Assembly (NCBI GenBank): GCA_964016885.1
Contig: OZ024741.1
Location: forward strand, 354,268,001 to 354,332,000
From: Eledone cirrhosa
Taxonomy: Eukaryota
Direction of reading: 5' to 3'
DNA length: 64,000 nt
Below the pieces are notes generated by a model. It made no database searches. It saw nothing but the letters and a program-made list of their open reading frames with translations, and was not told where the DNA came from. A program made the position numbers and the translations under genes. Below, piece by piece: positions 600-48,526 of this stretch. The stretch's first letter is position 1. Every line of letters starts with the position of its first letter.

Positions 600-1360
600 A
601 CATATATATATATGTAGTGTGTAACGTTTTTCAAAATATTTACTTCTGCGTTCACAGATTGATTTTTTTAGTTTCAGAAGATCCCGTTAAGGGTGAAAGC
701 AGCGTTTCTTTGCTTAAAATTTAATCTGTTATATTAATATATATATATATATAATTATATATTCGTGTACAGATATTTTTGCATACATAAAAACAAAATA
801 TAAACAAACGTATTTATTTCATGAAGGCACAAAATGTAGACACAATCCCGAGGCCGAGGTATTCCATTCTTCTCTCTACTGTTCCGCCCTTATAATATCT
901 GTCTGTACGTCTGGCTGTCTGCATTATGACGCTATATGTGTGTGTGAGTATATATGTATATATATATAGTGCGTGACGTTTTTCAAAATATTTACTTCTG
1001 CGTTCAAAGATTGATTTTTTCAGTTTCAGAAGATCCCGTTAAGGGTGAAAGCAGCGATTCTTTGCTTCAACTTTAATCTGTCATTTTAATATATATATAA
1101 TTATATATTTGCGTACAGATATTTGTGCATACACTAACAAAATATAAACAAAAGTATTTATTTTGCAATAATGTATTAATTTTCTTCGCATTGAAAAAAA
1201 AAACCCTGGTAATCTATGACAAATTTTTTTTATAAGTACAAAATGTAGACACCATCCCAAGACCGAGGTATTCCATACTTCTCTGTACTGTTTCAGAAAG
1301 GAGGGATAAACATGCCAATCTATGTTTAGAATCCCGAGCAACGCCGGGCCATTCTGCTAG
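600..1360 (+). mobile_element. Non-autonomous Helitron, array unit A (5' part absent, abuts an RTE insertion)
   Basis: Ends CCCGAGCAACGCCGGG hairpin + CCATTCTG + CTAG (1357-1360); same internal modules as units B and C. Confidence 0.75.
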
Positions 1361-2437
1361 TGTATATATCTAAAACAGAGAATGTCTGCCTGTCTGTCTG
1401 ACTCCCTAAAACTCGAGAACCACCCAACCGATTGTTTTCAAACTTTACACGTGATACTTATGGTCCTGTGAGTGTTTTGAGCAAAATATATTTCCAATTG
1501 TCAATGCCCTAGGGACCGCATTAGGCGCCGGAACGTCGCGCCCTTATAATATCTGTCTGTCTGTATGGCTGTCTGCTTTACAACATTATGAAGTGTGGTG
1601 TGTGTGGTGTGTGTGTGTATATATTCTCTTTGCTGACGTATTATGTTCGCTATTTTCTGTTCATTGCCAGGGAACGTCTTCACAAACCAAAGTATCATCT
1701 TCCTGTTTTCTTTTGGTTGCAAGGTTTTTCGAAATATTTACTTCTGAGTTCACAGATGGATTTTTTTAGTTTCAGAAGATCCCGTTAAAGGTGAAAGCAG
1801 CGATTCTTTGCTTAAACTTTAATCTTATTTTCGAAATATTTACTTCTGCATACACAAAAACAAAATATAAACAAACGTATTTATTTCACGAAAGCACAAA
1901 ATGTAGACACCATCCAGAGGCCGAGGTATTCCATTCTTCTCTCTACTGTTTCGCCCTTATAATATCTGTCTGTACGTCTGGCTGTCTGCATTACGACATT
2001 ATGACGCTATATATGTGTGTGTGTATATATGTATATATATATATATAGTGCGTAACGTTTTTCAAAATATTTACTTCTGCGTTCAAAGATTGATTTTTTC
2101 AGTTTCAGAAGATCCCGTTCAGAGTGAAAGCAGCGATTCTTTGCTTAAACTTTAATCTGTTATTTTAATATATATATAATTATATATTTGCGTAAGGATA
2201 TTTGTGCATACACGAACAAAATATAAACAAAAGTATTTATTTTGCAATAATGTATTAATTTTCTTCGCATTGAAAAAAAACCTGGTAATCTATGACAAAT
2301 TTTTTTTTATAAGCAAAAAATGTAGACACCATCCCAAGACCGAGGTATTCCATACTTCTCTGTACTGTTTCAGAAAGGAGGGATAAACATGCCAATCTAT
2401 GTTTAGAATCCCAAGCAACGTCGGGCCATTCTGCTAG
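1361..2437 (+). mobile_element. Non-autonomous Helitron, array unit B (1077 bp)
   Basis: 5' TGTATATATCTAAAACAGAG (TC in the other units), (CTGT)n near the 5' end, AACCGATT motif, 3' hairpin + CTAG at 2434-2437. Confidence 0.8.
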
Positions 2438-3129
2438 TCTATATATCTAAAACAGAGAATGTCTGCCTGTCTGTCTGACTCCCTAAAACTCGAGAACCAC
2501 CCAACCGATTGTTTTCAAACTTTACACGTGATACTTATGGTCCTGTGAGTGTTTTGAGCAAAATATATTTCCAATTGTCAATGCCCTTGGGACCGCATTA
2601 GGCGCCGGAACGTCGCACCCTTATAATATCTGTCTGTCTGTATGTATGGCTGTCTGCTTTACGACATTATGAATTCATGTGCGTGCGTGTGCGTATATAT
2701 ATATATATATATATTCTCTTTGCTGACGTATTATGTTCCCTATTTTCCGTTCATTGCCAGGGAACGTCTTCACAAACCAAAGTATCATCTTCCTGTTTTC
2801 TTTTGGTTGCAACGTTTTTCGAAATATTTACTTCTGAGTTCACAGATTGATTTTTTTTAGTTTCAGAAGATCCTGTTAAGGGTGAAAGCAGCGATTCTTT
2901 GCTTAAACTTTAATCTGTTATTTTAATATATATATAATTATATATTCATGTACAGATATTTTTGCATACACAATAACAAAATATAAACAAAAGTATATAT
3001 TTCACGAAAGCCCAAAATGTAGACCATCCCGAGGCCAAGGTATTCCGTACTTCTCTGTACTGTTTCGCCCTTATAATATCTGTCTGTATGTCTGCATTAC
3101 AACAGTATGACGCTGTGCGTGTGCGTGCG

Positions 3130-3160
<31 letters not shown>

Positions 3161-3546
3161 TGTAACATTTTTCGAAATATTTACTTCTGCGTTCGCAGAT
3201 TGATTTTTTTAGTTTCAGAAGATCCTGTTAAGGGTGAAAGCAGCGATTCTTTGCTTAAACTTTAATCTCTTATTTTAATATATATATAATTATATATTCA
3301 TGTACAGATATTTTTGCATACACAATAACAAAATATAAACAAAAGTATTTATTTTGCGATAAAGTATTGATTTTCTTTGCACGGAAAAAAAAAGCTGGTA
3401 ATCTACGACAAATTTTTTTAAGCACAAAATGTGGACACCATCTCGAGGCTGGCGTATTCCGTACTTCTCTGTACTGTTTCAGAAAGGAGGGATAAACATG
3501 CCAATCTATGTTTAGAATCCCGAGCAACGTCGGGCCATTCTGCTAG
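2438..3546 (+). mobile_element. Non-autonomous Helitron, array unit C (1109 bp)
   Basis: Begins TCTATATATCTAAAAC immediately after the CTAG of unit B; ends CCCGAGCAACGTCGGG...CTAG at 3543-3546. Confidence 0.8.
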
Positions 3547-3789
3547 TCTATATATCTAAAACAGAATGTCTGTGTCTGACTCCCTAAAACTCAAGAACTA
3601 CCTAACCAATTGTTTTCAAACTTTACACATGTAATACTTATGCTTCTGTGAGTGTTTTGAGCAAAAAATATTTCCAATTGGCAATGCCCTAGGGAGCGCA
3701 TTAGGCGATTTAGCAAGCTCTCTCTCTCTCTATAATCCTTAGTCTTTCTTTTTAGATAGATACATAGATATAATGTTGCGCCGTTATAA

Positions 3790-4793
3790 TATCTGTATGT
3801 CTGTCTGTCTATCTGCATTAAGACGGTCTGTATGTCTGTCTATCTGCATTAAGACGGTCTGTATGTCTGTCTGTCTATCTGCATTAAGACGGTCTGTATG
3901 TGTCTGTCTATCTGCATTAAGACGGTCTGTATGTCTGTCTGTCTATCTGCATTAAGACGGTCTGTATGTCTGTCTGTCTATCTGCATTAAGACGGTCTGT
4001 ATGTCTGTCTATCTGCATTAAGACAGTCTGTATGTCTGTCTGTCTATCTGCATTAAGACGGTCTGTATGTCTGTCTATCTGCATTAAGACGGTCTGTATG
4101 TCTGTCTGTCTATCTGCATTAAGACGGTCTGTATGTCTGTCTATCTGCATTAAGACAGTCTGTATGTCTGTCTGTCTATCTGCATTAAGACGGTCTGTAT
4201 GTCTGTCTATCTGCATTAAGACGGTCTGTATGTCTGTCTGTCTATCTGCATTAAGACGGTCTGTATGTCTGTCTGTCTATCTGCATTAAGACGGTCTGTA
4301 TGTCTGTCTGTCTATCTGCATTAAGACGGTCTGTATGTCTGCCTATCTGCCTGCATTAAGACGGTCTGTATGTCTGTCTGTCTATCTGCATTAAGACGGT
4401 CTGTATGTCTGCCTGTCTGCCTGCATTAAGACGGTCTGTATGTCTGCCTATCTGCCTGCATTAAGACGGTCTGTATGTCTGTCTGTCTATCTGCATTAAG
4501 ACGGTCTGTATGTCTGCCTATCTGCCTGCATTAAGACGGTCTGTATGTCTGCCTATCTGCCTGCATTAAGACGGTCTGTATGTCTATCTGCCTATCTGCC
4601 TGCATTAAGACGGTCTGTATGTCTGCCTATCTGCCTGCATTAAGACGGTCTGTATGTCTATCTGCCTATCTGCCTGCATTAAGACGGTCTGTATGTCTAT
4701 CTGCCTATCTGCCTGCATTAAGACGGTCTGTCTGTCTGTCTGTCTGTCTGCCTGCATTAAGACGGTCTGCCTGCCTGCCTGCCTGCCTGTCTG
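3790..4793. repeat. Minisatellite, about 28 units of 31-39 bp (GTCTGTATGTCTGTCTGTCTATCTGCATTAAGACG)
   Basis: Directly visible tandem repeat; GCATTAAGAC recurs every 31/33/35/39 bp. Confidence 0.97.
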
Positions 4794-4967
4794 AGGATAG
4801 TAGACGTGTTTCGTATCGCTCTGTGATTTGGATTTTTACCTGCTATTTTTGTGAGTGGAATTTTTTGAATTCTTTTGTATAATTAACTCTAACCCCTAGT
4901 CTGGGACTCTAGACGTCGGGTAAATATATTTTCACCCCTTTTGGGGTGAAAAATAAATATTTCAAAA

Positions 4968-6725
4968 ATGTTTATCGATATCGTCGATAACGATATCGTC
5001 GAAAACGATATCGCCATATTGGAAGCGAACGCCACGCCGACCAAAAAAACAAGCGGGAAAGAGGGAACAACAGTTCAAACTGTTGAACAACCCCTCCTCT
5101 CCAATGAAAAAAAGAATTTCAATTCAAATGAAAAAATTAATTTTCAAGAAAAAAATAACACCACAAATAAGGAAACCAACAACATTACAACAACAAACAA
5201 AGACAAAATTTCTTTTGCCCAAACACTCAGGAGAGCCACGGAATACAAAGCCATTGACATCACGAACGCCAAGGAAAATTTGCTAGAGGCTAGAAAATAC
5301 GTATCTTTTGGGGAGGATGGTTCTTTTACGATCAACTCCCCAGAAGAAGTGCGTCAACAGATTTACAAGAATACCGTAAGCTTCAGAACCATAACCAACG
5401 AAACGAGAAAGCCAGCGCAATTGACCGAAAGTCAAATCGAGCTGGTTCTGAAAGAAATTAAAAATGATATACTCTTTATTCAAAGAGGAAAGCTGTATGC
5501 CAGCATTATGGTCCGAATGAAGGACGAAATGCTGGCTCAGAAATATTCGGTGGCACCTATAGTGTCACCGCAATACACCTTCTTCCCCACATATAAAGGA
5601 AGAAGAACACAAAGGATAAGAATGTGGAGCCCTACGCCAGAAATTAACATCTGGTCCGTCCTAACAGGATTTACCGACCTAGATAAGGACATACTAATTT
5701 CAGCAGGGGAGTCCACCAGTGGACTGTTCGGGGGGAAAAGTCTGGAGGTTCTCTTACAGATGACACCTGAGAGAATCTCCGGAATACCCGACCGAGTGCT
5801 ACTGGATGGGCGAACCTACATAAATATCACAGTGGAAGGCAGGAGACCCTCATGTTACCACTGCGCTGGCAGAGGTCACCTGAGGACGGCCTGCCCTCTA
5901 CTAACAACAAAAAAACCACTGCTACAAACACCACAACAACAACAAAAACAACCAGCACCACCATCACAAAAACAACAAAATACACTACCATCACCACCAG
6001 AACAACAAAAACCAACAACACCACCACCACCACCACCACCACCACAACAACAACATCAACAACAGCTCAAGAAAACAACCCAAAACACGGTCCCACCCAG
6101 CCCCACCCCACAGAACACAAATACAAAAACAGTTCATACACAACCCGGAGATATACCCCTCCCCTCCAATACGGAAGAGGAGCTCATATCGTCGGAAGAC
6201 GAGGGGGCTCCCTTCCAAAAAGTGAAAAGAAAAAAACGTACACACACCACAACAACAAAAATAACCCCACCTGACAACACAACACAGACAATAAAACGCA
6301 AACTCACTCAACAACAACAAGCAAAAACAAACACAACACAAAAACTCTACACATACATAAACAAAAACAATGAAAACCTAACTTTAAAAATAGAAACCAA
6401 CCCTTCGATACAAACCGAAGGGCCGAATTTCGTAACGGCAATGGGGCTCCCTAACCTGAAAATGGTGAAAATCCCACTTGACATTTTTAAAACTTTAAAA
6501 GACATGTACCCTGAGGACGTGGGCCCACCCTGCACCAGGCCACTCAACCGCGTCCTCCTGAAAGGTTTTCCCCTCCCCTCCTCAAACACCCACACAACTC
6601 CAAAGATCCCAACCCCTCCACACACCAATACCCCCACACCACCACAAACCACCACCCCACCCATCAACCCCGCCACCAGCCCCATGGAAACTGAGCGACC
6701 CGAACCCCGGGACGCAGAGAGGTAA
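4968..6725 (+). CDS. Tx1 ORF1 (gag-like nucleic-acid-binding protein)
   Basis: 585-aa open frame; CCHC knuckle CYHCAGRGHLRTAC preceded by VEGRRP; P/Q/T-rich low-complexity C-terminal half; basic FQKVKRKKR patch; lies directly upstream of ORF2. Confidence 0.9.
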   Translation: MFIDIVDNDIVENDIAILEANATPTKKTSGKEGTTVQTVEQPLLSNEKKNFNSNEKINFQEKNNTTNKETNNITTTNKDKISFAQTLRRATEYKAIDITNAKENLLEARKYVSFGEDGSFTINSPEEVRQQIYKNTVSFRTITNETRKPAQLTESQIELVLKEIKNDILFIQRGKLYASIMVRMKDEMLAQKYSVAPIVSPQYTFFPTYKGRRTQRIRMWSPTPEINIWSVLTGFTDLDKDILISAGESTSGLFGGKSLEVLLQMTPERISGIPDRVLLDGRTYINITVEGRRPSCYHCAGRGHLRTACPLLTTKKPLLQTPQQQQKQPAPPSQKQQNTLPSPPEQQKPTTPPPPPPPPQQQHQQQLKKTTQNTVPPSPTPQNTNTKTVHTQPGDIPLPSNTEEELISSEDEGAPFQKVKRKKRTHTTTTKITPPDNTTQTIKRKLTQQQQAKTNTTQKLYTYINKNNENLTLKIETNPSIQTEGPNFVTAMGLPNLKMVKIPLDIFKTLKDMYPEDVGPPCTRPLNRVLLKGFPLPSSNTHTTPKIPTPPHTNTPTPPQTTTPPINPATSPMETERPEPRDAER

Positions 6726-6748
6726 GTGCCTCTTTCTTTGCCACCAAC

Positions 6749-9700
6749 ATGGCTGTCTTAAGAGTGGGTTGTCTAAATGCGCGTGGCCTGGGCTCACCTT
6801 GGAAGCAAGCTAAACTTCTAAGTGACCTCAGGTCACAATGTGTAAATGTGATGGTTATTTGCGAGGCCCGGATCAGCAGCATGCGACAGCTAACCCCCAC
6901 CTTTGATGACTTTGAGATGCACGCATCTCTGTCAGCCCGGAGGTGGGGGTGGGGTTGTCGTTCTGCTGCAAAAACATCTGGGTCTCGCTACACAGACGGT
7001 ACACTTGGACCCGGAGGGTCGACTCGTGGTTCTGGACCTTGGCAATGGCGAAGGCGAAGCTTTTAGGCTTGTCGCCGTATACGCCCCTTTTGGGGCAATG
7101 CGGTCGGACTTCTTCCATCGTCTGGAGACTTTTCTAGGGACGTCCCGCTCCTTGCTTTTAGTGGGGGACTGGAATAGTATCCTAGATGCACGTTGGGACT
7201 ATGTAGGGGCATGTCCCGATAGAGGGGGGTGTAACAGCCTTAAGGGGTTAATCGGCCGATTCGACCTGGCCGATAGATACCGACTAGATTTTCCGACTGT
7301 ACCAACCTGGACCTGGTCAAATAACAGTGGTCAATCTAGATCGTACCTAGATAGGTTCTTAGTTAGAATTAAGGATAGGGACTTTTTAAGTTGTCCAGAA
7401 ATGCTCATGGTGGGCTATTCAGACCACAAGTTAGTGACCTGCGTAGTCCACCTTGATAGAACGCATAGGCAGGGGCCCGGTTACTGGAAGCTCAACTTGT
7501 CCTTACCGGCAAGTAGAGCTTACAGGGACCGGATTAGAACCTTAGTTAAGGAGCAGTTGACGGGCGCCATCGTCAACAACAGGTGGTGGGGCTCTCTAAA
7601 AAGAGAGATTAGAGTAGTTTCAATAGGAGTTAGTAAGGAGTTAGCCTCAGATAGAAATAGGAAGGAAAGGGAGTTGGTAGTTAATGTTGAAGAGGCAATG
7701 AGAAGCGGCAACGTGGCCAGAGTGCAAGCGTCGAGAACGGTCTTGAACCAGTTCTTCGACGCAAAACACGAAGGCTGTGTTGTCCGAAGCAAAATACGTG
7801 CTCTGGGAAACGAGGGGACCGAAGATGTTAGCTGGGCCCGCGTGACAGAAGCGAAAAGTGGGATTAAATCCACTATCCGGTCTTTGCGAGACCAGGATGG
7901 ACGGCTGATCCTTGAACCTAAGCAAATGTGCGAGGCCTTTCAAAGGCACTTTGCCCAATTGTTCGGGAGGGGCGGGGAGCCGGTTGGAGGTGTGGATTTC
8001 GGTCCATACCTCGACGGCCTGCCGCGTCTTTCGGACAGGGAGGCGAGGTCCTGCGACGGGCCGATCTCAGCTGCTGAAATAGGGGACGTGCTGAGCCTAT
8101 GCGGCAAACGCAAATCTCCAGGACTCGATGGTCTGCCCTACGAACTATATATTAATATGCCGGACTTGTTCCCCGATCTCCTCGAGGCGGTCTACTGCAA
8201 CTGGCAACAGAACGGGAGAATTCCCTGTTCTGTGACCAAGGGCGTAGTCTCGCTAGTGAGGAAGGACGAGAACAAGGGGGATGACATTAGTAATTTTAGG
8301 CCCATAACTCTGCTAAATGCAGAGTTAAAGATTTTGGCGAAGGTGTTAGCGAAGAGGTTGGCGCTTGTCGTGGGGGGCCTGGTGGGAGATGCGCAGACAT
8401 GCGCTATCCCGTCCAGGTCCATCCACGACAACCTCCACCTCATGCGATACATCATAGAGAGGGTTGGGAACAAACCCGGCTTTGGTGGGGCCCTGATAAA
8501 TTTAGATCAGTCTAAAGCGTTCGATAGGGTGGACCATGGTTACCTGGATGCGGTGCTAGCGGCGGCTGGGTTCGGACCCGTTTTCAGGGGCTGGATCACT
8601 GCCATGCACAGCAGCCGCATCTGCTCTAGAGTCAAGGTGAACGGCTACCTTTCGGAGCCGTTCGAAATCACCCGCTCCATCCGACAGGGGTGCCCTCTCT
8701 CCTCCCTTCTGTATGTGTTGACTCTCGAGCCATTACTGCGGAAGTTGGAGTTGTTGCAGGGCATCCCTTTGGAACCGGGATTGCGCAAAGCGGTGTCGGC
8801 CTACGCCGATGACGTAACAGTAATGGTGTCGACCGCCTCGGAAATCGAGGCAATCGGCACCTTACTAGAGGAGTACGAAAGGTTGACAGGGGCTAAGCTG
8901 AACCGGGACAAGTCAGTCGCTTTGCAACTCGGCGAGTGGAGGGGCAAAGCGATGTCGTGCGACGGTATCGGACGGTGGACGGAGGGCCCGGTGAAGTTGC
9001 TTGGGGTCTGGTTCGGACCGGACCTCCAGGTGGAGAAAAACTGGGGTGAGGTGACGAATAGGGTGTTTGCACTGACCCAGAAGTGGGCCGAGTGCAAACT
9101 ATCCCTAAAAGGTCGGGCGGAGGTGGCGAACGCTTACATAGCGTCCGTCATCTATTACTTGACTGTCGTGCCTTGCCCGGGTGAGATCCTCGCCAAAATG
9201 GAGCGCGCCCTCTTTTATTTCCTTTGGAAGAAGAGGTCTCCTCTAGTGAGGAGATCCATCTGCTGTCAACACCCTTTGAAAGGAGGGCTGGGGATGCCGT
9301 GGCTAAAAATGCGTAAACACGCATTGAGGCTAAGGCACCTCCACGTATTCCTCACCGGTCAACCGGTGTGGGCCCCGTTTGTGAGGCGAGCCTTCCCGAG
9401 GCTCGTCTCGCTCACCGAGCTGCAGTCCTGGGTGAAGCAAAGACCGAGAAAACTGGGCGACTGGCACACCGAGTGTGCCCAGGCGCTCACGGCTCTCTGG
9501 CAGGCGGACCCGGCTATCGACGGAGACTCCACCTCGTCATTCTATAGAGGGCTGGTGGTTAGCGGGTGCGACGACGCCCTCGGAGAAGCCCTAGGCATGG
9601 AGGAGGACGAACTGGCCAGTCTATTCGGTAGGACTTTCGGCCCGGGACCTATGGACAACTTCCAGAAGTCCTTGGCCTGGCAGTGCTACCGAGGGGCTCT

Positions 9701-10178
9701 GCCCGTTCGGGATAAGCTCTACAGACACGGGCGCCCGGGTAGGGACCCCTCGAAAAAGATCTGTCCCAGATGCGTGCGCGACGAGGAAACCGTCGCGCAC
9801 GCATTGGTGCACTGCCCGGGCGTTGCCGATCTGTGGGGCTATGTCGAACGACTGCTGTCACGGGTGGGACCAATTAGGTTGACCACCGAGTCCATTGTAA
9901 CGATCAAGCCGCCTCCCCCCTTCAAAAATGAAGGAGAGGCGGTCTTCCTCTGTGTAATAGCCATGGTAAAAGAGGCTATATGGTGGACGCGTCTGAAAGG
10001 GCTGAGGTCGGACACCTTTCTCTCCGGCCAACAACTGGTCCTTTTCTTCCGATACCATTTCGGAAGAAGGATCAGGATGGAGAGAGAGGTGCTCTACTCC
10101 AGCCAGTTTTATGAAAGGTGGGTGAAAGTTGCGAGAATGGCCCGTGTGAATGGGCCTTCTCTCTACCTCAGCCTGTAG
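6749..10178 (+). CDS. Tx1 ORF2 (AP endonuclease - reverse transcriptase - C-terminal zinc finger), one frameshift near 6925-6931
   Basis: The true start MAVLRVGCLNARGL...CEAR is in the 6749 frame; the rest (VYAP, GDWN, SYLDRF, SDH, GPGYWKLN, KSPGLDG, FRPITLLN, LDQSKAFDRVDH, RQGCPLS, YADD, CPRC..ETVAHALVHC) is in the 6903..10178 frame. Confidence 0.93.
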
Positions 10179-10700
10179 GTGGAACAGAAAGAAGGGAGCA
10201 CCCTCTCTTTGTGCTCCCGTGGAGAAGGGTCGCACACTTTTTTTCGGGGGTGTGTGTGACCCCAAAACGATCCCTCCCTATTGAGGACCTTCTTGTTATT
10301 ATTTTGTTTGTTATATTTTTCTTACTCGATTTTTATGTAAACTCCCCCCACCCATGTACATGTCCCTTTCTTTTGTGCCCTAGTGGCAAATAAACAGAAA
10401 TTTGTCTGTACATAGTGTAACGTTTTTCGAAATATTTACGTCTGCGTTCACAGATTGATTTTTTTAGTTTCAGAAGATCCCGTTAAGTGTAAAAGCAGCG
10501 ATTCTTTGCTGATACTTTAATTTGTTATTTTAATATATATATATATATATAATTATATATTCGTGTACAGATATTTTTGCATACACAATAACAAAATATA
10601 AACAAAAGTATTTATTTCACGAGGCTCGATAAGGATAAATATATATCAAATATATAAGAACCCTAGAGCAAATCCCGAGCAACGCCGGGCCAATCTGCTA

Positions 10701-10746
<46 letters not shown>

Positions 10747-10924
10747 GAACCTATCTTCAAATTTGGTTTTATTTTCAATGTTAAATACACAAGTGTGTTG
10801 AACAATGAAAATAAAACAAAATTTTGAAGATAGGTTCTTAATTAGTCCATTGTTTTTAAGATCATTTCAAAGGGTTGATTGATCATGGTAAATCGATATA
10901 TTCACTAATAGATGGTGGTTATGT

Positions 10925-11160
10925 CATGTTGATCCAGTTAACTCAGCTGTATAAATGAGTTGTGATGTCACTGGTGCCAAGCTGTATTGGCCATTGCCTT
11001 TCCCTGGGACACCATCGGTGCCATGGAGAGGGGAGACTGGCATGCATGAGCAACTGCTGGTCTTCCATAAACACACCTTGCCCAGACTTGTGCCTTGGAG
11101 AGGAACTTTTTAGGTGCAAAACCATGGTCTCGATATCCAAAATCCATCTCACCATCTTTC
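10925..11160 (+). mobile_element. SINE fragment (3' body of the family at 41506)
   Basis: CCAGTTAACTCAGCTGTATAAATGAGTTG...GGTGCAAAACCATGGTC aligns with 41620-41812. Confidence 0.65.
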
Positions 11161-11639
11161 TCAAAAACAATGAACTTTAATTTTTATTTGTGAGATATAA
11201 AAGGAGGCTGAAATGTGCCAGTCGGATATCTCTATTGGGAGAAATATATAAATGATGAAGGATGCATAAATCAAAGATAAAGAAATAGAAGCAGAAAAAT
11301 CAAAGACAAAAAGTAGAAAAAGTATAAAAAAATGTAGTAGAGAAGGATAAAAAAATACATAGGAGCAAATAATCAAATAACATAAACACAAACAATAGTA
11401 TAATGAATGAGGCGAGAGTTAAGTCATCATAAGGACCCTTTTAAAAGTATGAAACAATAAATGAGTCAAAGTAAGTAAATATTTGAACTGCTTGCTGGAT
11501 GTCAGCCTTGTATCCCAACTACCACTTGTCTGTAAATTGCCATAAAAGATATTCTGATGTGTGTGGCTATAGATGAGCATTATAAATGTGGGGTTTCATG
11601 TACTGAATGGTGTACGTAAAAAATCCTTCCCTCTCAGTT

Positions 11640-12372: not shown

Positions 12373-13030
12373 CTAAAAATAAGAGAATTGAATAAAATGG
12401 AAAAGTTTAATTTAGTGTCAGATAGACTAATCAATGTTCTCATCATTTTGAAAACTTTTTTTTATCTTATATAGTGTTGCATGAATATAAATAAGTTAAA
12501 CAATAAATAAACATAAACATATAAATAATAAACCTTATGAATTATCAAAGGACTAGAAGTATGAGAAATTTTTAAATGTGGGAGTCCCATATGCAGAAAA
12601 TAACTGTAATAGCAGTTGATCACTGCTATTGAGATGGAAAACATTGGACAGAGTTACTCAATCTTTTCTACTATCATATATAGTGATCAATTGTTATTAC
12701 AGTTATTTTCTGCATTTGGGATCCTCACATTTTCGGATATATATAATAAATGCTTATGCTACAACACAACATTTATTTGAAGATGGGTAAACTTAAAGTA
12801 GATAAAACAACTGTTTTTGAATTAGAAACCTTAGTTCTGAAAAATCTGAACTGATACTAGGACTAAAACTTGGTTCAGTGTGAGTATACTACAGAGCTCT
12901 GGTGTGACACTTTTATGTTACATTCAATAATTTCATTAATATTGCTTTCTGCCTCATATATTTACATTCTTCAGATTCCAATATACAGTATGTTTATATA
13001 TAATAATTTTTTTTCGCACACACGCATATA

Positions 13031-16785: not shown

Positions 16786-19345
16786 ATGAAGTATGTGTTG
16801 GACCTCCATCATTTTAAATGATGAGTATACCAATTGTTTGGATAACAGAATTACCTGCTCACAGGGCTGGATATAAACTTTGGTGGGGTTTGGGGTACTT
16901 CAGGTTGTGGAGGCCTCTCATACCAAAAACTTAGAATACACAACAAAGCCCCCAATCTGACATATCAAAGTCAGCTTGGTGCAAGTAAATTGCAATTGAA
17001 AAGTTATACATACAGGTATTAAATTCAAACATTTTAACCATTCTATAACTAAAAAGCCCAGCTGAGGGCACAAATAAATTGCTACAGCCATTACTGATCT
17101 TTGTCCAACCCATACTAGGATAGAAAAACAAACATATCTGTAAAGTGTTTGTTGATCAAATGACAACACTATAGATAGAGACAACTTTTCAGTCTGGCTA
17201 TGCATATGACAACTTCTCTACTGCTGGTGCCCTGATAAAATGCACCTGGTACACTCTGTAAAATGATTGGCATTATGAAGAGCATCTAACCAGAAGAAAC
17301 CATGTCAAATATGGAACATATGAGCTAGACATGTTTCTCTGACCAATCTAGTCTCAGACTGACAACCTGTCAAACCCATATTAGCATGGAAAACAGACAT
17401 AAAATGATGATGTTGATGATGATGATGTGAAGTATAAGGGAACCTCATCAGACTGACTTAGTCAGGCAGGGGTGCAATAAATAAATTATTTATGGTCAAG
17501 GCAGTAAATTGTTAGAACATCGGATAAAATGCTTTGCGGTATTCATTCCAAGTTCTCTGCACTCAGAATTCAAGTCATGTTGTGGTCAACTTTGCCTTTC
17601 ATCTCTTCAAGATTGTTAAAAAAGTACCATTCCAGTACTGGGGTTAATTCTTCCTGTATATTTCTTTCTCACTTGCTCTCTTTGGCTATGTTCAGACCTT
17701 GAGAGGGATGGGTTCTGTTCAGCTTGAAATGCACATATATCATATTGGCACGTCTCCATCAAGAATTAAAGACCCATGGCAAAGCATGGCACTATGCCAT
17801 CAGATGCAGTGAGCAAGGGAGAAGAATGGGGAAAGAACCTGTGAAAGAAGATAACACAGGAAGAAGTGGTGAAAGCGGATCAACGGATGCTGAAGTCCTG
17901 CAATTATGACAAGGGGCTGCAACGAGCAAGCGAGCGTGCATGCATGCGTTGGAACTCCATCAGCTCCCACGATGGATGTTCCAGTTGTTCGATCAATGGA
18001 ATTGCCTGCTCATGAAAATAATATGCATGTGGCTGAGCTTTTAAATTACAAGTAGCTCATGTTTACTAGCTGAATGAACTGGAACAACATGAAATAAAGT
18101 GCCTTCCTCAACACTACAACATGCCACTGAGAATTGAACTCAGGAACTTACAAACCCCTAAGACATAAATTGTATCAGCAGAAATATAATGCACCACCAG
18201 CATAGTCTCCTTATATGTAAAATATGTTACTACAATTGGTACTTCTCTGCAAACTTAGATTAGAACACATATGTGATCCAAAGAAAAATCACCATCTTCA
18301 GATTGGAAAATGACAGCATAAAAACAACACAAGATACCATGCTCTGACTTAGTTTCCTTAATCCTTCTTTTGACAAAGGGATTTTATCCTGAAATATTAA
18401 GGACTAATAAACACCTCCAAGATAACATTTCAACAACTTTGTTGTTATTATTTTTAACATTTAATGTCCTACTTGCATTGCTGTAGCTCTCTAAAAAAAA
18501 TACCCCAAAAATATTTTCTACAATATAAGCAAACTACAACACCCCCTTTGGCATTTAAACCAGCTGTATCTGGCCAGAATTCTCACACTTCTTTCTGCTC
18601 AAACTGGCCATAACCAGCTGCTCATATTGACATTAAGGTGTTGTTCTCAAAATAAATAACATCAAAAAATTTGATATGTATCACAAAAATATAATAATAT
18701 ATATAGAATGTAAAAAAATATAATATATATAGAAAAAAATATAATATATATAGAAAAAAATATAATATATATAGAATGTAAATTCTAAAAGGTTAAAAGA
18801 AATGTTATTAATCCGAGTGAAATGATGAATTAGTAGTCTTAACCACTAAGTCATGTAACTTCACAGCCCTAAGCCATGCAAATATAGAAAAATTGAAGAG
18901 TTTCACTAATGGAAGGTGTGAAAACTTGACAGGTGTATAATTATACACTAAGTTTGGTCTTATCTTCACCACTCACCTAACACTTAACAGTTTACCTAAC
19001 ATCTCTAGTAAAGAGTACAGGCAGAGAGTAGGCAACTGAAGAACCTTTTTATCTTTTTCACCCTTTTCGCTCAATGATATACACATGTGTCTATGTGCAT
19101 GTATATGTGTGCTCACGTGTGTACACACACAGGCACACACATACATATATTTTTGTTTTGCAAGGTTTTTTATATGAAATCGTGTGTTGAAACAAATATT
19201 GTTATATTTGGGGAGGGTCATGTTGTTCTAACATTGCCAGGAATAAAACACACTCACTGTTTGGTTTGGATTTCACTTCCGTATGTTATGAGGAAAAATA
19301 ATAGTATCACTGATGATGTCACGTGTGTGATGAAAGAACTTTGAA

Positions 19346-19384
<39 letters not shown>

Positions 19385-21032
19385 CTATATTTTTAATTGT
19401 TGGTCAATCAATGATAAACATTGATTACCAGCTAAATTAACTATAGGGATATAAAACATACGGAAGTGAAAACCAATCCAAACCAAACAGTGATTGTGTT
19501 CATTATATATTTCTGGCAATATTATAACAATATGACTGTCTCCAAATATAACAATATATGTATATATTTATATACACATATACATCATTTAAGTTAGTTT
19601 GATTCCCAACTGGCGGTTCTGGTTGGCAAATCATAATGTAACAAATCAATTAAAGTACTCAACATTATGCAAGTCATCCATCGTAGATGTGGTATCCAGT
19701 GGTTGGTGCAGGGACAGAGTAAAGTATTCATTAAACAAAAACAGAAGGCCAGACTGGAAAATTTGCTTTAAAATTTTTAATTCCGTGAAATCACTGTAAT
19801 ATTTCGATGGCCCAGCTCCATCATCAAATTATGATGCAAGACAATCTCATCAGGTGACATCCACAGAATTACTTAACAGGGTTACCGTTGAACCCAAACA
19901 TATAATGGAATAGAAAATAGAAAATTTGATTTAGGGGACTGCCTGTAAAAAAACTGTTGTATTGGTATGAGGCTACTTGATGCTAGCTTCTAGGACTGGT
20001 AGTTGTGGAGGGGGTAGTTGTGGAGTGGGTAGTTGCGGTCAAGTGATGACACACACCCTTCCCAAAGAATGTCACTCCTTAATTATAATTTTGGCTATGC
20101 TCTCCTGGAGATCTAAAGATTCTAATCTATCAGTCCATTGCCTTAAAGGGGTGCATAGCTATAAAAATATTGTCCAGCAAAGAATAGGGGTTGAGACAAG
20201 ATACAAATATATTAATTTGCAATAATAATAAGAAGACTATAACTTGTTACATAAAGGCAGTTATTTTTTATTTTAGATATCTCCGATGGTTCAGATTTAC
20301 TAGAGTATATTTACATGAATATATGTTTAGAGCTAAAATATGTGTGGTTTATCTTCATCTGGTACTATAGTTGAGTGTATCAGTGAAATCCAAAGTAAAT
20401 AGGCTGTATTCGATCAAGTATATTAAAAAATGAATGGAGGGGAAAATTGATTAATAACAAGTCAATTTTCAAGCACTCTAGGTCCTGACCAAAGTTATTC
20501 TGAACAACCTGTTACTACAAGGACCACAGGTTACAGGTTGATGGATTAATACACCCCACCGATGCTAACATACCGAGGAAGATAGTATGAAGGTGGGCAT
20601 ATAGGTAGTAAACTACATATTTTATGTTACCTCCATGGTGTTATAACTTATAAGAGAGAGGTTTCACAATATCTAACTTAGCTAGAAAAACATAGTCAGG
20701 AAAAATCTATGTTTAGTGGAAGTTATTTCTGAGGTTGATTTAAATGAAATTAAACTAAGTTAAATTAAAATGAAAAATAAAATGAAATTAGTACCACAGC
20801 TATTATTGAATGTAAGGGTCATTGAATATTATATAATATATTATATATGGAGTATACTATATAATATAATATATTATATATGGAGTATACTATATAATAC
20901 ATACAATAAATTATATATGGAGTATACTATATAATACATACAATAAATTGCCATTAGGTGGGATGCAGTAAAGTAAGAAAGTAATAATAACATGCCCCAT
21001 TACAATGAGGTATTAGCAACACGTGGCTTTAA

Positions 21033-21199: not shown

Positions 21200-21348
21200 T
21201 TAACGAAAAAGTAGTATACATAGGGAAGAAAATAGATAGAGAAGATGACAGTTAGATGGGAGAGATAGACAGGAACAAAGATAAAAAGATAGAAGGAAAA
21301 AAATGATTGTGAAAGGAAATAAATAAAAAAAGGAATAGATGGACTTAC

Positions 21349-21618
21349 CTTCTGTCTATGTTTTAAGAGACACTGTAATTCTCGAACTAAAGATAGCATT
21401 AATGCACAGGGAACTGCCGAGTCAATCGCACCTATGAACTCAAACTCATAGAATTTCTTGGAATCATAATGACAAGCCAGAATGACACGTTGGCTGGCCT
21501 TAGGGTCTAAGGTAGCAATGATAGTGGAAAATTTCACGTTTCCATTCGGAGTTTCTTGATCAAATTTATCTTCTGTAATTGTCCAACTATCCAAGCTTTG
21601 AAGCTGAGAAATAATATG
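21349..21618 (-). CDS. QPCT: Glutaminyl-peptide cyclotransferase exon (probably exon 3)
   Basis: ccattgcAG|CATATT...CAGAAG|GTaagt; 270 nt; HIISQLQSL...FSTIIATLDP...LACHYDSK...FIGAIDSAVPCALML...HRQK, containing the QC LACHYDSK and GA.DSAVPC (Zn-ligand Asp, disulfide Cys pair) motifs. Confidence 0.95.
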
Positions 21619-22483
21619 CTGCAATGGAAGACATAATAATTGTTATCGTTTTCATCTTATATTCAACTCTTCTGATACCAAACCACCTGAAATTGTCCCT
21701 GATTTTATGACACTAATGCATTTGTTTTAAAGTGTTCTTATTTAAATCTAAACTTCCCATAGTAATTCTAGGTATGAAAATTTTGTTAACAGTTTTCTCA
21801 CTGACGCACAAGACCAGTACTTAATCTTCTGGCCACTCCAGGCACACTAAATCGATGATAGAGTAATCTCCCCTTAATAGCTAATGCAGTGTGAAGGGAA
21901 ACAATTCATAAAAATTTCTAGCATGTTAAAGGTTAATCAGTACTTTATTTCATCAAACCCAGAAGGATGAAAAATGAAGTTGACCTTGTGGGACAACACC
22001 AAAACAGAGTATGGTAACTTGATACAGTAATGCATTTAGTCCAGTACACTAACAATTTTGCCAATCCACTGCCCACACACAAGCTTAATGAGAAAGTTAG
22101 TTATATTACTAAATCCTTTCAAATTCTTGATTATTTTTTTAATAATATAAAATCATATGCTGTGTTTGTCATTAGAAGTATGGTAACAAAAGAGTTAATT
22201 GACATCTTTTTACCCTTTTGATACCCAACTGCTTGGAATTACTTGTTTTGTGAAACAAAAAACACCCATTATAATTTTTTGATATTTATTTTAAAAACCC
22301 TCCATCATACTTTTATGTTTGAACATTTTGTTGAATTATGATCAAAACACCATTTTAATAATGATAAAAACATTTGATTATTTTCAAAATTAATTAAAAT
22401 ATAGATTTAGTAATTAACTATGCAGCTATGTCTACATTCAGGCAATCAAATTAGATTGAGTATAAAATCTTATAGACAGACTA

Positions 22484-25139: not shown

Positions 25140-25632
25140 ATATATATGAATGTATATATAGTGTATTTTGCAATACACTGTATGCTTAATTAAAAGCATT
25201 TCGAAGACCTTACTCTATTGTTTTAGAGTAGTGACAGTCTCACTCACTTCAATTTTCAGCAAAATACACTATATATACATTCATATATATATCGCTATTT
25301 CAGAGCACCAATTCTAATTTTCAATTTCTGCTTGACCGGCAACCGCTCTGTATAATCAGTTCCTGATTATTACTAGAATTCTATAAGAATCAAACATTCA
25401 TGATTTTCAGCAAACAGGCGGAGTACTTCGCTTTGATAAGCACTAAAAAGTGCGAAACAGAGCTCTGTCAGCTTTATCTCCCCTGTTTGCTGAAAATTAA
25501 AGTAAGTGAGACTGTCACTACTCTAAAACAATAGCGTAAGGTCTTCAAAATGCTTTTAATTAAGCATACAGTGTATTGCAAAATACACTATATATACATT
25601 CATATATATATATCGCTATTTCGGAGCACCAA

Positions 25633-28605: not shown

Positions 28606-29109
28606 AAATTCAATACTACAATGAAGACATAACATGGAGAAACACAAAGACAGGCGTTTCATTGAGTAAACTCAATTTATTCAAGTTGCAATGTTTCAAT
28701 GATAAAGAGAACTTCCAGTAAGAGAAAACATAAGGGACTTCTGAGTTTTAGGGAGAAGTAAATTACAGAGAAGTTATTTGTGGCTATATAGGCAGCGAAT
28801 TGGCAGAGTCGTTAGAATGTCAGATAGAATGCTTGCGATATTCGTTCCAGCTGTCTGCTCTTTGAGTTCAAATCCCACCAAGGTCAACTTTGCCTTTCTC
28901 TAGTCGAGGTTGATAAAAGAATGTACCAGTCAAGTACTGGGGTTGATTCTTCCTCTATATTTTTTTCTCACTACCATTCTTCCCTCACTCTCTTTCCTTC
29001 TCTGGAAGAAATCTGCTGTACTCAGAGCTAAAGAGGAGATGGGCTCTGTCAGATGCCAGTTCAGCACTCCTATGATTCCCTCAGGAGTTACAGGATCATG
29101 CATGCATTT

Positions 29110-29945
29110 GTGACTATAGCTGTTTTCTAAACATATTCTATTTGTAATTATTAGGTTTTCTCTAAACTGTCTTATATGTCTATTAGGTGTTGTCTAAACA
29201 TGTCCTATTTGTGACTGTTAGGTATTTTCTAACCATGTACTATTTGTGATTAGTAAGTGTTTTCCAAACGTGTTCTATTTGCAAGTTAGCAATTCTCTAG
29301 ACGTCCTATTTGTGACTATTAACTCTTTTGTAAACATATTCTATTTGTGACTATTATATATAAAATAAAGTACCAGTAATGCACTGGGTAATTGCTGGCC
29401 TTGTGCCTAAAGTAGAAACAATTATTTGTGGATTGGCAGTATCGGTAGAGGGTCGGACGCCATGCTTTGCAGCAAAGAGTTACGGCTCTTTATGGTTTGA
29501 GTTCAAATCCCGCCGAGGTTAACTTTGCCTTTCATCCTTACGGGGTCGATAAAATAAAGTACCAGTAATACACTGGGATAATTGCTTGCCTTGTGCCAAA
29601 AGTAGAAACAATTATTTGTTTACTAAAATGGCGGTGGATTGGCAGTATCGGTAGAGGGTCGGACGCCATGCTTTCCAGCATAGTTACGTCCCTTTACGAT
29701 CTGAGTTCAAATCCCGCCGAGGTTGACTTTGCCTTTCATCCTTATGGGGTCGATAAAATAAAGTACCATTAATGCACTGGGTAATTTCTGGCCTTGTGCC
29801 TAAAGTAGAAACAATTATTTGTTTACTAAACATACTGTTTGTGACAATTAGCTGTTCTCTAAACATATTCTATTTATGACTATGTTTTTCTAAACATGTA
29901 CTATTTGTGATTAGGTGTTTGCTAAATGTTTTCTATTTATGACTA
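29110..29945. repeat. Degenerate ~32-bp minisatellite interrupted by a SINE cluster
   Basis: TGTTTTCTAAACATATTCTATTTGTGACTATTA-like units at 29110-29357 and 29821-29945. Confidence 0.7.
29362..29820 (+). mobile_element. Three tandem tRNA-derived Nin-domain-like SINEs (one tail only, two near full length)
   Basis: A box TGGCAGTATCGG, B box GAGTTCAAATCC, GCCTTTCATCCTTACGGGGTCGATAAAATAAAGTACCAG, tail CCTAAAGTAGAAACAATTATT; copies at ~29362, 29428 and 29630. Confidence 0.85.
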
Positions 29946-32900
29946 TTCATTAGGAGACTGCTAGACCATCATCTGTGTACAATGTTACATTTAGAACCAA
30001 TCTATTTCTTATATAAAACCCACCTGATCACTATATGCCTGATAACAATATCCAGACTATTAACCTCATCTCTAACAATGAAAATGTTTTAAATATCTAC
30101 TTATATGCTACATTTTGAATAGTACAATCACTTATTGTTGTCAGATGTTTTATTCCTGGATTGCATACATGGTACATCAATGAATTCAAACTATGAGAAA
30201 CCTATATTTCTAAAATAAAAGCAAAAACATGCTTATCCATTAGGCCACTGATGATTATATATATTTATATTTCAGCAAAGGCAGCCATATTGAGCTGGTA
30301 TCAGCATTAGACTTAGTGATTGGGTTATCAGCAAGTATTATATTTACTGCAGCTATGATTTTTCTAGAAAGAACTCAAATATAGTAAAGATATAGATATT
30401 CAAAAAAAGTTTTTATCACTACATATGAGATTAACAGTCAGAAAAAATTATAATTTTATTCTAGCTATACAAATTCCTCAGCTCCATCATAGCCATCTCA
30501 TGCTAACATCAAATAGCTTGTTGTCATCTCCTTTGAGGCAGTTAATAGACAGAACTGTCTGAATTCTTTGCACCCCAAATTCAAATCCTACAAAGGTTAA
30601 TTTTGCATTTTATCCTTTTGATATCAATAAATAAAGTACCAATCTAATAGTGGGGTTGATTCTTTCTCTATCTTTTTCTCACTTCTTCTCAATTACTTTC
30701 TCTCCTTCCCTGGAAGAAATTGGCTGTTAAGACCTGGAGAGTGGATAAGCTCAGCCAGATTTTTTTTAAATATCCAAGAAATGCCATATATCACCTCTAT
30801 AACTCCACCATACATTCATTCTCCTTTACTTGATAAGAATCATTCATTGAAAAGAAAAAAATAGCTAGAAGGATTCCTAGCAGAAATAACTGATTGATGT
30901 GATTACAGATAATGATGAATATTAGAAATAATAGATAACTGGTCTGAAAGTGATACAGTAGAAGCTGAGGAAACTGGTGATCATCTGTATCAGTAAATAG
31001 TAATTCTTTTACTTGTTTCAGTCATTAGAATGTGGCCATGCTGGGCACTGCCTTTGGTTTAGTCAATCATACTGACACCAGAACCTTTTTTTCAAGTCTG
31101 CTTCTTATTTCATTGGTCTCATTTTTGTGGAACTGGTAAGTTATGTGTCATAAACATGGAGACACACACAATCATCATCATCACTGTTTAGCATCCATTT
31201 GTCCATGCTTGCATGGGTTAAGCGGGTTGTCCACGCTGAGGCAAGTCTGGCCAGAGTTCGCCATGCCATATCTGACTCCGAAAAGGACTGTAAATTTGGC
31301 TGGGTATTTTACAGCTGGATGCCCTTCCCAACACCAACCACATTTACATGTATACACAATATATATAAATATAGATGCTTTAAAACAAACTGCTTTGTTT
31401 CATAGAAACAAGGATGTCTTTGTATCAAAAGGATTAGATCCTGTTGGAGGTCAAATTAATCTTTCATCTGTTCAGGCTAAATAAAGTAATTACCCGACAT
31501 TCATTGAGACATATTCAATTAACTGTACCTATTATTTGAAACATGTGGCTTTGTAAGGAATTTCTTCCCAAAGTCTAGAGAAAGAATTTAATCACCAAAA
31601 TTTAGTTGAACCTGATAAATTTACACAATTCTTTTCTGTTTTTGTTGTTGAAAGAATTTATCATAGTATAGTAGCTTAACTGCAGTAATACTACAAATTG
31701 CGACTCCCAGTCATCTCTTTTTAACCATCTCTAACACCTATCTTAATCATTGTATTATACTGCTTATGTAATAAGGGATAGCATTTGGTCTATCCATATT
31801 CATTACATCCACCATCACCAATTATCACTCTTTCATCATTACCTCTTTATCACTTTACCTCTCTGCCATTCATGACTGTGGATTGAGGGATGGCATCAGA
31901 TCTCTCCACATTCAGTATTCTCTACTGTCATATATTTGTCTACTAGCCTTCACCCTCTCCACCTTATGTGGTTCTTAATAGATATCGACTGCTCTCCTTT
32001 ACACTCACTTATCTTTGCCATCCATCACTTGCTGTCTCTTCACATTAACCATATTCATTGCAATCCCATCAGGCTATTTGTAATCTCTTTACCAACAACC
32101 AGCTTCCAGCTGTTACTATCTCACACCCATTACTTATTTCCTCTATCTTACTATCCTATTACTCTGTCCCTCCATCATACTCTCTCTCTCTCTCCCTATC
32201 TCCTCCTGGACATCACTAGAAAGAACAGAGGAAACTTAGAGTAGAGAAGTATTGCAAGAGATAAGGCAACCTCTCTAGAATTGGTGTCACAACAAAATGT
32301 TCATTTACATTCTGTAACAGTGATTGGTGAATGAATTGAGATAACAAAAGATAGAGAGCATTGTAGTTGTGTTAAATACATGACACCCTTTCTAATACTG
32401 GTGTCATGATAAAATGCATCCAGTATACTCTGTAAAGTGGTTGGTTCTAGGAAGGGAACCCAGCATAAAAAAAAACATGTCAAAAAATGGGACCTACAAG
32501 CAAGACAGACTCCTTTAGCCTATACATGAGGGAAGTAATTCAAAATAAAAACTGACTCAGAATATGACAATCTATGAAACCCATGCCAGCATGAAAAGCA
32601 GAAGTAAAATGATAATGATTATAATAATACCAATAAATATTTTGAACAGCTTGTATTATTTAATTCCTTTTAATACTATTTAATACATGGTATCTAACAA
32701 CATAAGCTTTAACGAGCCTAATAATATAATTGTTTCTATTTTTGGCAAAAAGGCCAGCAAGTATCCAGTGCATTACTGGTACTTTATTTTATCGACCCCA
32801 TAAGGGTGAAAGGCGAAGTTAACCTCGGCAGGATTTAATGTTAGGATAACATTGAGTAATGAAGGTATGTAGTTTAGTGGTTAAGCTATTGAACTCATGA

Positions 32901-48294: not shown

Positions 48295-48526
48295 TAATAA
48301 TAATAATGATGGTGTTGATTTCTTTATTAACCACATATATTAAGAAAACATGAAAGATGGCACAGGATGACACATTGTGGGAGTTTTGTGTGTAAAAAAA
48401 GGTTATAACATTTAAAAAAAAAATCAAACAAATAAAAGAAGACCTTTGAGGGTTACTCGTGGCGACGCCCCACAAAAGCCACGATTACCCTGACAACAAC
48501 AACAATTAGTATTATTATAATCATCA

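What the first reader, a model, noticed from the sequence alone, without database searches (positions are those of the whole stretch)
3547..10701. Young full-length Tx1 LINE sitting at the (TCTG)n microsatellite of a Helitron: candidate transposon-targeting retroelement
Seen: the LINE begins right after ...CCTGCCTGTCTG (4793) and its 3' end GAAATT is followed by TGTCTG, after which the Helitron internal module resumes and ends in hairpin+CTAG at 10701. Established: Tx1-clade APE retrotransposons are often sequence-specific (Xenopus Tx1L/Tx2L in Tx1D/Tx2D DNA transposons; Kibi/Koshi in microsatellites; Keno, Dewa and Mutsu in RNA-gene repeats). Inference: this family may target (TCTG)n tracts supplied by an abundant Helitron, using it as a safe harbour and possibly being co-mobilised by rolling-circle transposition, since both ends of unit D are intact around the LINE. 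A single site cannot prove specificity.
Basis: partly seen in the sequence, partly recalled or inferred. Interest (0 to 1): 0.72.

Follow-up and report, generated by a model that had tools for sequence, protein, structure and literature searches.

The report
LINE targets TCTG repeats, not Helitron
A young jumping gene (a LINE retrotransposon), likely from an octopus relative, sits almost always in TCTG repeats and often stacks head to tail there; its place inside a rolling-circle transposon here is a one-off in a copy whose repeat had grown to about 1 kb, so this looks like a new repeat target for a known kind of element, not a transposon riding a transposon.

Summary
The structure is real: a 5.6-kb LINE (4794-10402) flanked by TGTCTG sits in a genuine non-autonomous Helitron. 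Repeat specificity is confirmed: 198 of 210 exact 3' ends in the genome are followed by NNRTCT, and target duplications show the repeat is target, not tail. The Helitron idea fails. Only this copy, of 120 whose flanks I read, lies in the Helitron; 0 of the 29 closest other Helitron copies carry the LINE at this junction; gapped searches found no 3' end at the two normal Helitron sites. Unit D's 35-bp minisatellite exists only here. The window copy has a private ORF2 frameshift. The family is 85% full-length, 46 of 100 copies are clustered, and some neighbours are separated by 58-170 bp duplications, which likely reflects 5' joining by pairing with the resident copy. Closest known: Kibi/Koshi and R1 arrays; Tx1 membership was not tested by tree. 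The scan had already noted this TCTG family on other DNA of this genome.

The parts
600..3546 (+). Older head-to-tail units of the non-autonomous Helitron (CTAG|TC joints); the array continues about 2.3 kb before the window start
   Evidence: units about 88% alike; L218 hits 7729-9942
3547..3791 (+). Helitron unit D, 5' part starting TCTATATATC
   Evidence: 71-89% match to the 5' parts of other copies
3792..4793 (+). Locus-unique 35-bp TCTG-rich minisatellite (28 units) ending in a CCTG/TCTG run: the landing tract
   Evidence: all 23 genomic matches of its 25-mer lie here
4788..4793 (+). TGTCTG, upstream copy of the apparent 6-bp duplication (may be target or element leader)
   Evidence: one search shows TCTG-type bases before all 85 full-length copies
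4794..10402 (+). Full-length L1-superfamily (Tx1-like) LINE, no poly(A) tail
   Evidence: 0 of 100 3' flanks have five A's
4968..6725 (+). ORF1, 585 aa, RNA-binding-like region plus one CX2CX4HX4C knuckle
   Evidence: zf-CCHC E=0.024-0.067 (below cut-off); Atlas clusters with zf-CCHC/RRM, 0.89-0.92, (both on the intact copy in L124)
6749..10178 (+). ORF2 (APE endonuclease, RT with YADD, C-terminal zinc knuckle), frameshifted near 6925 in this copy; 1145 aa in intact copies
10179..10402 (+). 3' UTR with two predicted hairpins and AATAAA (10389-10394) 8 bases before the end
   Evidence: fold without shuffle control
10403..10408 (+). TGTCTG, downstream target
10409..10701 (+). Helitron unit D, 3' part with hairpin and CTAG end, followed by T

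Best explanation
This is one copy of a young LINE family whose copies sit in (TCTG)n repeats across the genome in a fixed register, likely because its own endonuclease cuts that repeat, and its position inside a Helitron is likely incidental, following the growth of this copy's short repeat into a 1-kb tract. Shown: fixed 3' register GAAAT(T)|TGTCT, repeat on both sides, target duplications mostly 11-21 bp where they can be read, no poly(A), 85% full-length copies, same-strand clusters, no Helitron enrichment. Inferred steps: (1) the ORF2 endonuclease nicks the CAGA strand at about 5'-CAGACA/G-3' and reverse transcription is primed there; (2) the RNA probably starts a few TCTG units upstream of AGGATAG, so the cDNA end can pair with the target repeat, giving uniform full-length 5' junctions with 0-17 extra TCTG bases; (3) when a copy already sits downstream in the tract, the cDNA end probably pairs with its 5' end, which duplicates everything between nick and resident and stacks copies head to tail; (4) unequal exchange later duplicates some units. 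The window copy then lost coding capacity by a 2-base deletion.
For: 198 of 210 3' ends followed by NNRTCT; 97 of 100 and 93 of 100 by two local measures. All 85 full-length copies have TCTG/TCTC/TCCG/GTCT directly upstream, 76 of 85 two units, against 0.6% background. Target-derived variants at +2/+3 recur in the upstream duplicate: 12 of 59 full-length copies have a diagnostic duplication (11-53 bp), and 5 of 13 truncated copies gave a match of 12-23 bp, including one at a non-repeat TATCTG site. In 10 of those 12 the +1 T is not in the target, so it is element-encoded. Pure-repeat run is longer upstream than downstream (median 16 vs 7, n=35, p=0.017). Host tracts median 136 bp (n=47) against 16 bp for the Helitron's 5' tract (n=26). 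Helitron: 1 of 120 copies, 0 of 29, 0 gapped matches (the same gapped form found 15 LINE-LINE joints).
Against: Cleavage and RNA ends are untested. Flanks were read for 120 of the 210 exact 3' ends; the other 90 or so were tested only by gapped patterns that match 11 of 29 and 16 of 29 Helitron copies, so a few Helitron insertions could be missed. 47 of 59 full-length copies give no diagnostic duplication, and 8 of 13 truncated copies none. 12 of 210 ends lack NNRTCT. RNA pairing rather than the enzyme could set part of the specificity. In this copy the duplication is only 6 bp and Helitron sequence is missing beside it, so the junction may have been altered.
Confidence: 0.85

Rival explanations
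1. The LINE targets this Helitron family as a safe harbour and is carried along by rolling-circle transposition (first reader; like Tx1L in Tx1D or Tx1-Mar in Mariner-N4).
For: Both ends of unit D are intact; the Helitron is abundant (1,426 exact 5' ends) and carries two short TCTG tracts; Tx1 families that target DNA transposons are described (PMC4494074, passages).
Against: 1 of 120 copies in the Helitron; 0 of 29 closest Helitron copies with the LINE at the junction; minisatellite unique; nearest-neighbour identity among 30 Helitron 3' modules median 96.9%, maximum 98.4%, older than the LINE (window copy 30 differences from its nearest full-length relatives), so the Helitron was probably quiet by then.
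Confidence: 0.03
2. TCTG after the 3' end is a tail encoded by the element (as with repeat-tailed CR1/L2/RTE elements, recalled), which seeds the repeats instead of seeking them.
For: No poly(A); the +1 T is element-encoded; some TCTG units at the 5' end seem to travel with the element.
Against: Flanks are long, locus-specific degenerate minisatellites on both sides; variant bases downstream are duplicated upstream; truncated copies L093, L128, L147, L148, L150 have TCTG-rich sequence upstream too; at the non-repeat site L163 no TGTCTG was added.
Confidence: 0.05
3. Targeting is real but is set mainly by RNA-DNA pairing: transcripts read through AATAAA into the flanking repeat and pair with the nicked strand, with a loosely specific endonuclease.
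For: No poly(A) although AATAAA lies 8 bases from the end; R1 transcripts are proposed to carry downstream target sequence that anneals to the bottom strand (PMC2718515, passages).
Against: From +2 on, the junction follows the target and not a donor: A at +2 or +3 in 8-10 of 100 copies, mirrored upstream. Not exclusive with the best explanation.
Confidence: 0.2
4. The head-to-tail stacks and long spacer duplications come only from unequal crossing-over or from assembly errors, not from the insertion reaction.
For: Some neighbours are near-identical (0, 1, 4, 4-8 differences) and patchy mosaics occur (L121, L216). Crossing-over between alleles would also give a shared 5' part.
Against: Many neighbours differ by 16-107 bases and have their nearest relative elsewhere. 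In L145 a 112-bp non-periodic duplication separates copies with 78 differences starting at base 17, leaving little homology for a crossover.
Confidence: 0.3

Closest known systems
Kibi (TC)n, Koshi (TTC)n of teleosts and crocodilian Tx1-1_Crp group in (TTCC)n/(TTTC)n (PMC4494074 passages; PMC3812793 passages)
   Same: APE-type L1-superfamily LINE inserted specifically into a microsatellite
   Different: Target (TCTG)n is not among the targets listed in the passages read; mollusc host; relationship by RT tree not tested
Xenopus Tx1L in Tx1D and crocodilian Tx1-Mar/SINEU-3 in Mariner-N4_AMi (PMC4494074 passages)
   Same: A Tx1-type element found inside a non-autonomous DNA transposon; tandem copies around a duplication
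   Different: There up to 90% of copies are in the transposon (313 of 347 SINEU-3); here 1 of 120
R1 tandem arrays and melanogaster-type R1 5' junctions of Drosophila (PMC2718515 passages)
   Same: New copies insert into the duplication at the 5' end of a resident; upstream target sequence on the RNA is proposed to give precise 5' junctions
   Different: R1 clade, 28S rDNA, fixed 14-bp spacer; here dispersed microsatellites and spacers of 6-170 bp
Recently active L1-Tx1 families of Octopus vulgaris (PMC13282606 passages)
   Same: 13 families, 421 recent insertions covering 2,288,644 bp (mean 5.4 kb, close to this 5.6-kb element)
   Different: No target site analysis in the main text ('target site' 0 hits); whether this family is among them was not tested; supplements not seen
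Human LINE-1 ORF2p (PDB 8sxt)
   Same: EN-RT collinear over residues 7-858, E=7.5e-51, catalytic motifs aligned
   Different: CCHC-type ORF1 instead of Transposase_22, no poly(A), repeat-specific target

Membership tests
L1 superfamily non-LTR retrotransposon | Two ORFs; ORF2 with APE endonuclease, RT and C-terminal zinc knuckle, closest to L1 among solved proteins | tested here: met
   (L1 E=7.5e-51 vs R2 E=3.9e-18)
L1 superfamily non-LTR retrotransposon | Target site duplications | tested here: met
   12 of 59 full-length and 5 of 13 truncated copies show readable duplications; the rest are hidden by the repeat or absent
Tx1 clade | RT groups with named Tx1 elements in a tree | not testable with these tools
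   No named Tx1 reference came back; best hits are Argonauta (67%), unnamed ENA proteins (about 50%), turtle and fish proteins (35-42%)
Tx1 clade | Type I ORF1 (RRM plus CCHC), which PMC5203782 calls consistent with Tx1 in non-mammalian animals (passages) | tested here: inconclusive
   CX2CX4HX4C present; Pfam zf-CCHC below cut-off, no RRM hit; Atlas features point to zf-CCHC/RRM clusters
Microsatellite-specific LINE (Kibi/Koshi type) | More than 20% of flanks of one repeat type (criterion in PMC4494074) | tested here: met
   198 of 210 and 93 of 100
Microsatellite-specific LINE (Kibi/Koshi type) | [quoted passage not shown] | not testable with these tools
   needs a cleavage assay
Transposon-targeting Tx1 (Tx1L, Tx1-Mar type) | More than 20% of copies flanked by one DNA transposon family | tested here: not met
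   1 of 100 and 0 of 20
Co-mobilised Helitron cargo | Further Helitron copies carrying the same insert at the same junction | tested here: not met
Non-autonomous Helitron (canonical type; features recalled) | 5' TC, 3' CTAG with a hairpin shortly before it, insertion between A and T, no target duplication | tested here: met
   27 of 29 other copies end CTAG, 26 of them followed by T; most 5' ends read A|TC or CTAG|TC; hairpin folds
Non-autonomous Helitron (canonical type; features recalled) | An autonomous RepHel partner with the same ends | not tested
   no search made

The most novel reading that the evidence does not exclude
When this LINE lands upstream of a resident copy, the new cDNA end pairs with the resident's 5' end and copies back to the nick, so no fixed second-strand cut is needed. 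That would give the 58-170 bp duplications that end exactly at the neighbour's first base, turn truncated cDNAs into full-length copies and grow arrays from their 5' side: a neighbour-assisted insertion route that explains an 85% full-length LINE family.
Probability: 0.35. Interest if true: 0.62.

Novelty: new member of a known kind. Interest (0 to 1): 0.36.

Why it matters
The striking claim, a retroelement that targets and rides a Helitron, is not supported. What remains is a young, abundant, tailless LINE with a tetranucleotide target that I did not find listed, with 29 fully coding copies among 100 and sister families nearby that end in TATC-type repeats. The review PMC3812793 (passages) says the mechanism of microsatellite targeting is not well understood; close families with different repeats would let one map specificity by endonuclease swaps. 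The long duplications bear on how the second strand of a LINE is primed.

Tried and rejected
Helitron targeting and co-mobilisation: rejected. Avoidance of the Helitron: a rough binomial gives P=0.03 for 0 of 69 sites in the 5' tract at 4.9%, but its tracts are short and the site count is crude, so no claim is made. Encoded TCTG tail: rejected. RNA evidence: no RNA holder listed. Empty allele: four contig runs of one study laid on 4745-11200 showed no joint across the LINE among the joints printed (101 not shown; letters at 4745-4798 skipped as repeat), so this was uninformative. Named Tx1 references for a tree: none returned, so no clade tree was built; the only tree is of 91 family copies. 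Do +1 or -1 junction bases follow the tree? The TTGATAG start marks an older clade; +1 C is scattered (by eye). A paper search on R1 arrays failed twice on term format; the Tx1L endonuclease paper PMC85248 is not held. Literature searches made; none of the listings or passages read names a (TCTG)n/(CAGA)n-specific LINE, but Kojima and Fujiwara 2004, Repbase and all supplements were not seen and may hold one. UTR folds had no shuffle control and no Rfam scan was run.
Full report
What is there. The window shows a head-to-tail array of a short non-autonomous Helitron (600-3546, continuing about 2.3 kb before the window). Its last unit starts TCTATATATC at 3547 and ends in a hairpin and CTAG at 10701. 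Other copies are about 640 bp, start A|TC and end CTAG|T; 1,426 have an exact 32-base 5' end. In unit D the second short TCTG tract has grown into a 35-bp minisatellite of 28 units found nowhere else in the genome (23 of 23 matches here). A LINE of 5,609 bases follows at 4794-10402, with TGTCTG on both sides. ORF1 (585 aa) has one CCHC knuckle; ORF2 has endonuclease, RT and zinc-knuckle matches. An intact copy elsewhere (L124) gives 586 and 1145 aa and aligns to human L1 ORF2p at E=7.5e-51. The window copy has a 2-base deletion near 6925 and two missing codons, not shared by any of 47 young copies. The host is probably an octopod: the best named hit is Argonauta hians at 67%.

Target. The 24-base 3' end occurs exactly 210 times; 198 are followed by NNRTCT, against 0.95% of random window positions. 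I fetched the first 100 in genome order (C1-C4). Two are short 3' fragments without an alignment; 85 reach the 5' end, 80 of them over 5.4 kb; 29 keep both ORFs. All 85 have TCTG, TCTC, TCCG or GTCT directly upstream. None of 100 has a poly(A). The repeat is target, not tail: in 12 of 59 full-length copies not followed by another copy, a downstream stretch with non-TCTG bases is duplicated upstream (11-53 bp, eight of 11-19 bp), and 5 of 13 truncated copies gave 12-23 bp matches, one at a lone TATCTG. In 10 of the 12 the first base after GAAAT is T where the target has C, so the element ends GAAATT and the cut lies at about C|TGTCTG. Between duplication and AGGATAG there are 0-17 extra TCTG-like bases, and the pure run is longer upstream than downstream (median 16 vs 7, 35 solo copies, p=0.017). 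I infer that the RNA carries a short TCTG leader, as proposed for melanogaster-type R1 (PMC2718515, passages).

Helitron test. Only the window's copy has Helitron sequence at its junction among the 100 (69 independent sites); four other regions hold Helitron pieces 0.5-3.5 kb away. None of 20 further copies on other contigs has any within 1.5 kb. Of the 29 closest other Helitron 3' modules (loci for 30 of 44 matches), none has the LINE at the junction; one has a diverged LINE piece about 1.2 kb downstream. Gapped genome searches for a LINE 3' end within 32 bases of the two normal Helitron sites gave 0 and 0; the motifs match 11 and 16 of 29 copies, the second would not match unit D's own altered junction, and the same gapped form found 15 LINE-LINE joints. 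The Helitron's 5' tract is about 5% of 29,324 TGTCTGTCTGV sites, so 1 of 69 is no enrichment. Host tracts are long (median 136 bp, 47 solo copies) and normal Helitron tracts short (median 16 bp), which fits a hit on the one expanded copy. No co-mobilised copy exists among the best matches: the nearest is 96% alike, and nearest-neighbour identity among the 30 modules peaks at 98.4%, whereas young LINE copies differ by about 0.5%.

Stacks. 46 of the 100 copies lie in 15 same-strand clusters of 2-9. Many neighbours differ by 16-107 bases and have their nearest relative outside the cluster; others differ by 0-8 and are later duplications or assembly duplicates. Of 31 spacers, 5 were skipped (long or followed by a truncated copy) and 26 scored. 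Ten are at least 50 bp with six or more departures from the pure repeat: five match the flank upstream of the first copy with 0-1 mismatch (58, 112, 123, 123, 170 bp), two with 12 mismatches against 117 for the downstream flank, and three (L121 twice, L216) fit the downstream flank better or neither. Distinct neighbours share a longer identical 5' run than unrelated young pairs (median first difference 180 vs 79, 15 pairs, p=0.0014) but not a longer 3' run (102 vs 102, p=0.5); the pairs are not independent. One truncated young copy has a 12-bp duplication reaching 2 bases into the older copy behind it (L093). This fits new copies landing upstream of residents and closing their 5' end by pairing with the resident; crossing-over between alleles could give part of the same pattern.

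Comparison. Microsatellite-specific APE elements are known: Kibi (TC), Koshi (TTC), crocodilian (TTCC)/(TTTC), Waldo (ACAY), Mino (AC) (PMC4494074 and PMC3812793, passages). Transposon-targeting Tx1 families are known too, but need a large share of copies in the transposon, which fails here. R1 forms arrays by inserting into the duplication 5' of a resident. Tx1 membership rests on ORF1 type and domain order (PMC5203782, passages), not on a tree. The O. vulgaris repeat annotation lists 13 recent L1-Tx1 families without target analysis in its main text (PMC13282606, passages); PMC5753468 (passages) added nothing. Papers not named here were seen only as listings. Supplements, Repbase and Kojima and Fujiwara 2004 were not seen and may already hold this family or target.

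Earlier notes of this scan describe what reads as the same TCTG family at other places in this genome, with stacks, no poly(A) and sister families in TCTA/GATA and ATT repeats. I had written my reading before seeing them; they are unreviewed and not independent support. Look-ups near this place and for the Helitron idea found nothing.

Verdict. Observation confirmed; TCTG targeting supported; Helitron targeting and co-mobilisation not supported. A new member of a known kind, interest 0.36.

Noticed in passing
window 21340-21620 (-) and L218:6143-6259 (-): Two exons of a glutaminyl cyclase (QPCT)-like gene lie on either side of the Helitron array and LINE (human QC residues 56-146 and 282-317), so the whole structure is probably intronic, with the LINE antisense to the gene. 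Middle exons were not located.
   Followed up: partly
window 48526-49716 (+): Degraded 5'-truncated relative, 69-81% alike in three pieces, between TATTATTATAATCATCAT and TATCATTATT; probably a member of an ATT/ATC-associated sister family.
   Followed up: partly
L091, L097, L117, L119, L126, L151, L215, L216 (3' ends of 73-88% relatives): Older sister families share the same tracts and their 3' ends are followed by TATCT rather than TGTCT (8 of 8 printed), suggesting a shift between TCTA and TCTG targets.
   Followed up: partly
13 of 85 full-length copies, e.g. L092, L095, L120: An older subfamily (92-95% alike) starts TGTCT|TTGATAG instead of TCTG|AGGATAG and groups together on the tree; 7 copies have TCTC|AGG.
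   Followed up: partly
L216 (G000:C3:358729419-358781089): Nine-copy array; copies 5/7 and 6/8 share defects, pointing to a dimer duplication.
   Followed up: partly
L209 and L111: Short internally deleted elements (about 480 bp and less) that join a 5' end to the 3' end sit in the stacks; possible non-autonomous derivatives.
   Followed up: no
window 10740-10844, 12574-12732, 19192-19561, 25140-25609: Inverted-repeat elements (possible MITEs); the last has 124-bp arms 97% alike.
   Followed up: no
window 37060-37674 (+): 204-aa open stretch that looks like the C-terminal part of an RTE-type LINE (recalled resemblance; no Pfam hit).
   Followed up: no
window 29106-29946: 35/66-bp minisatellite interleaved with tandem copies of an abundant SINE-like repeat.
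   Followed up: no
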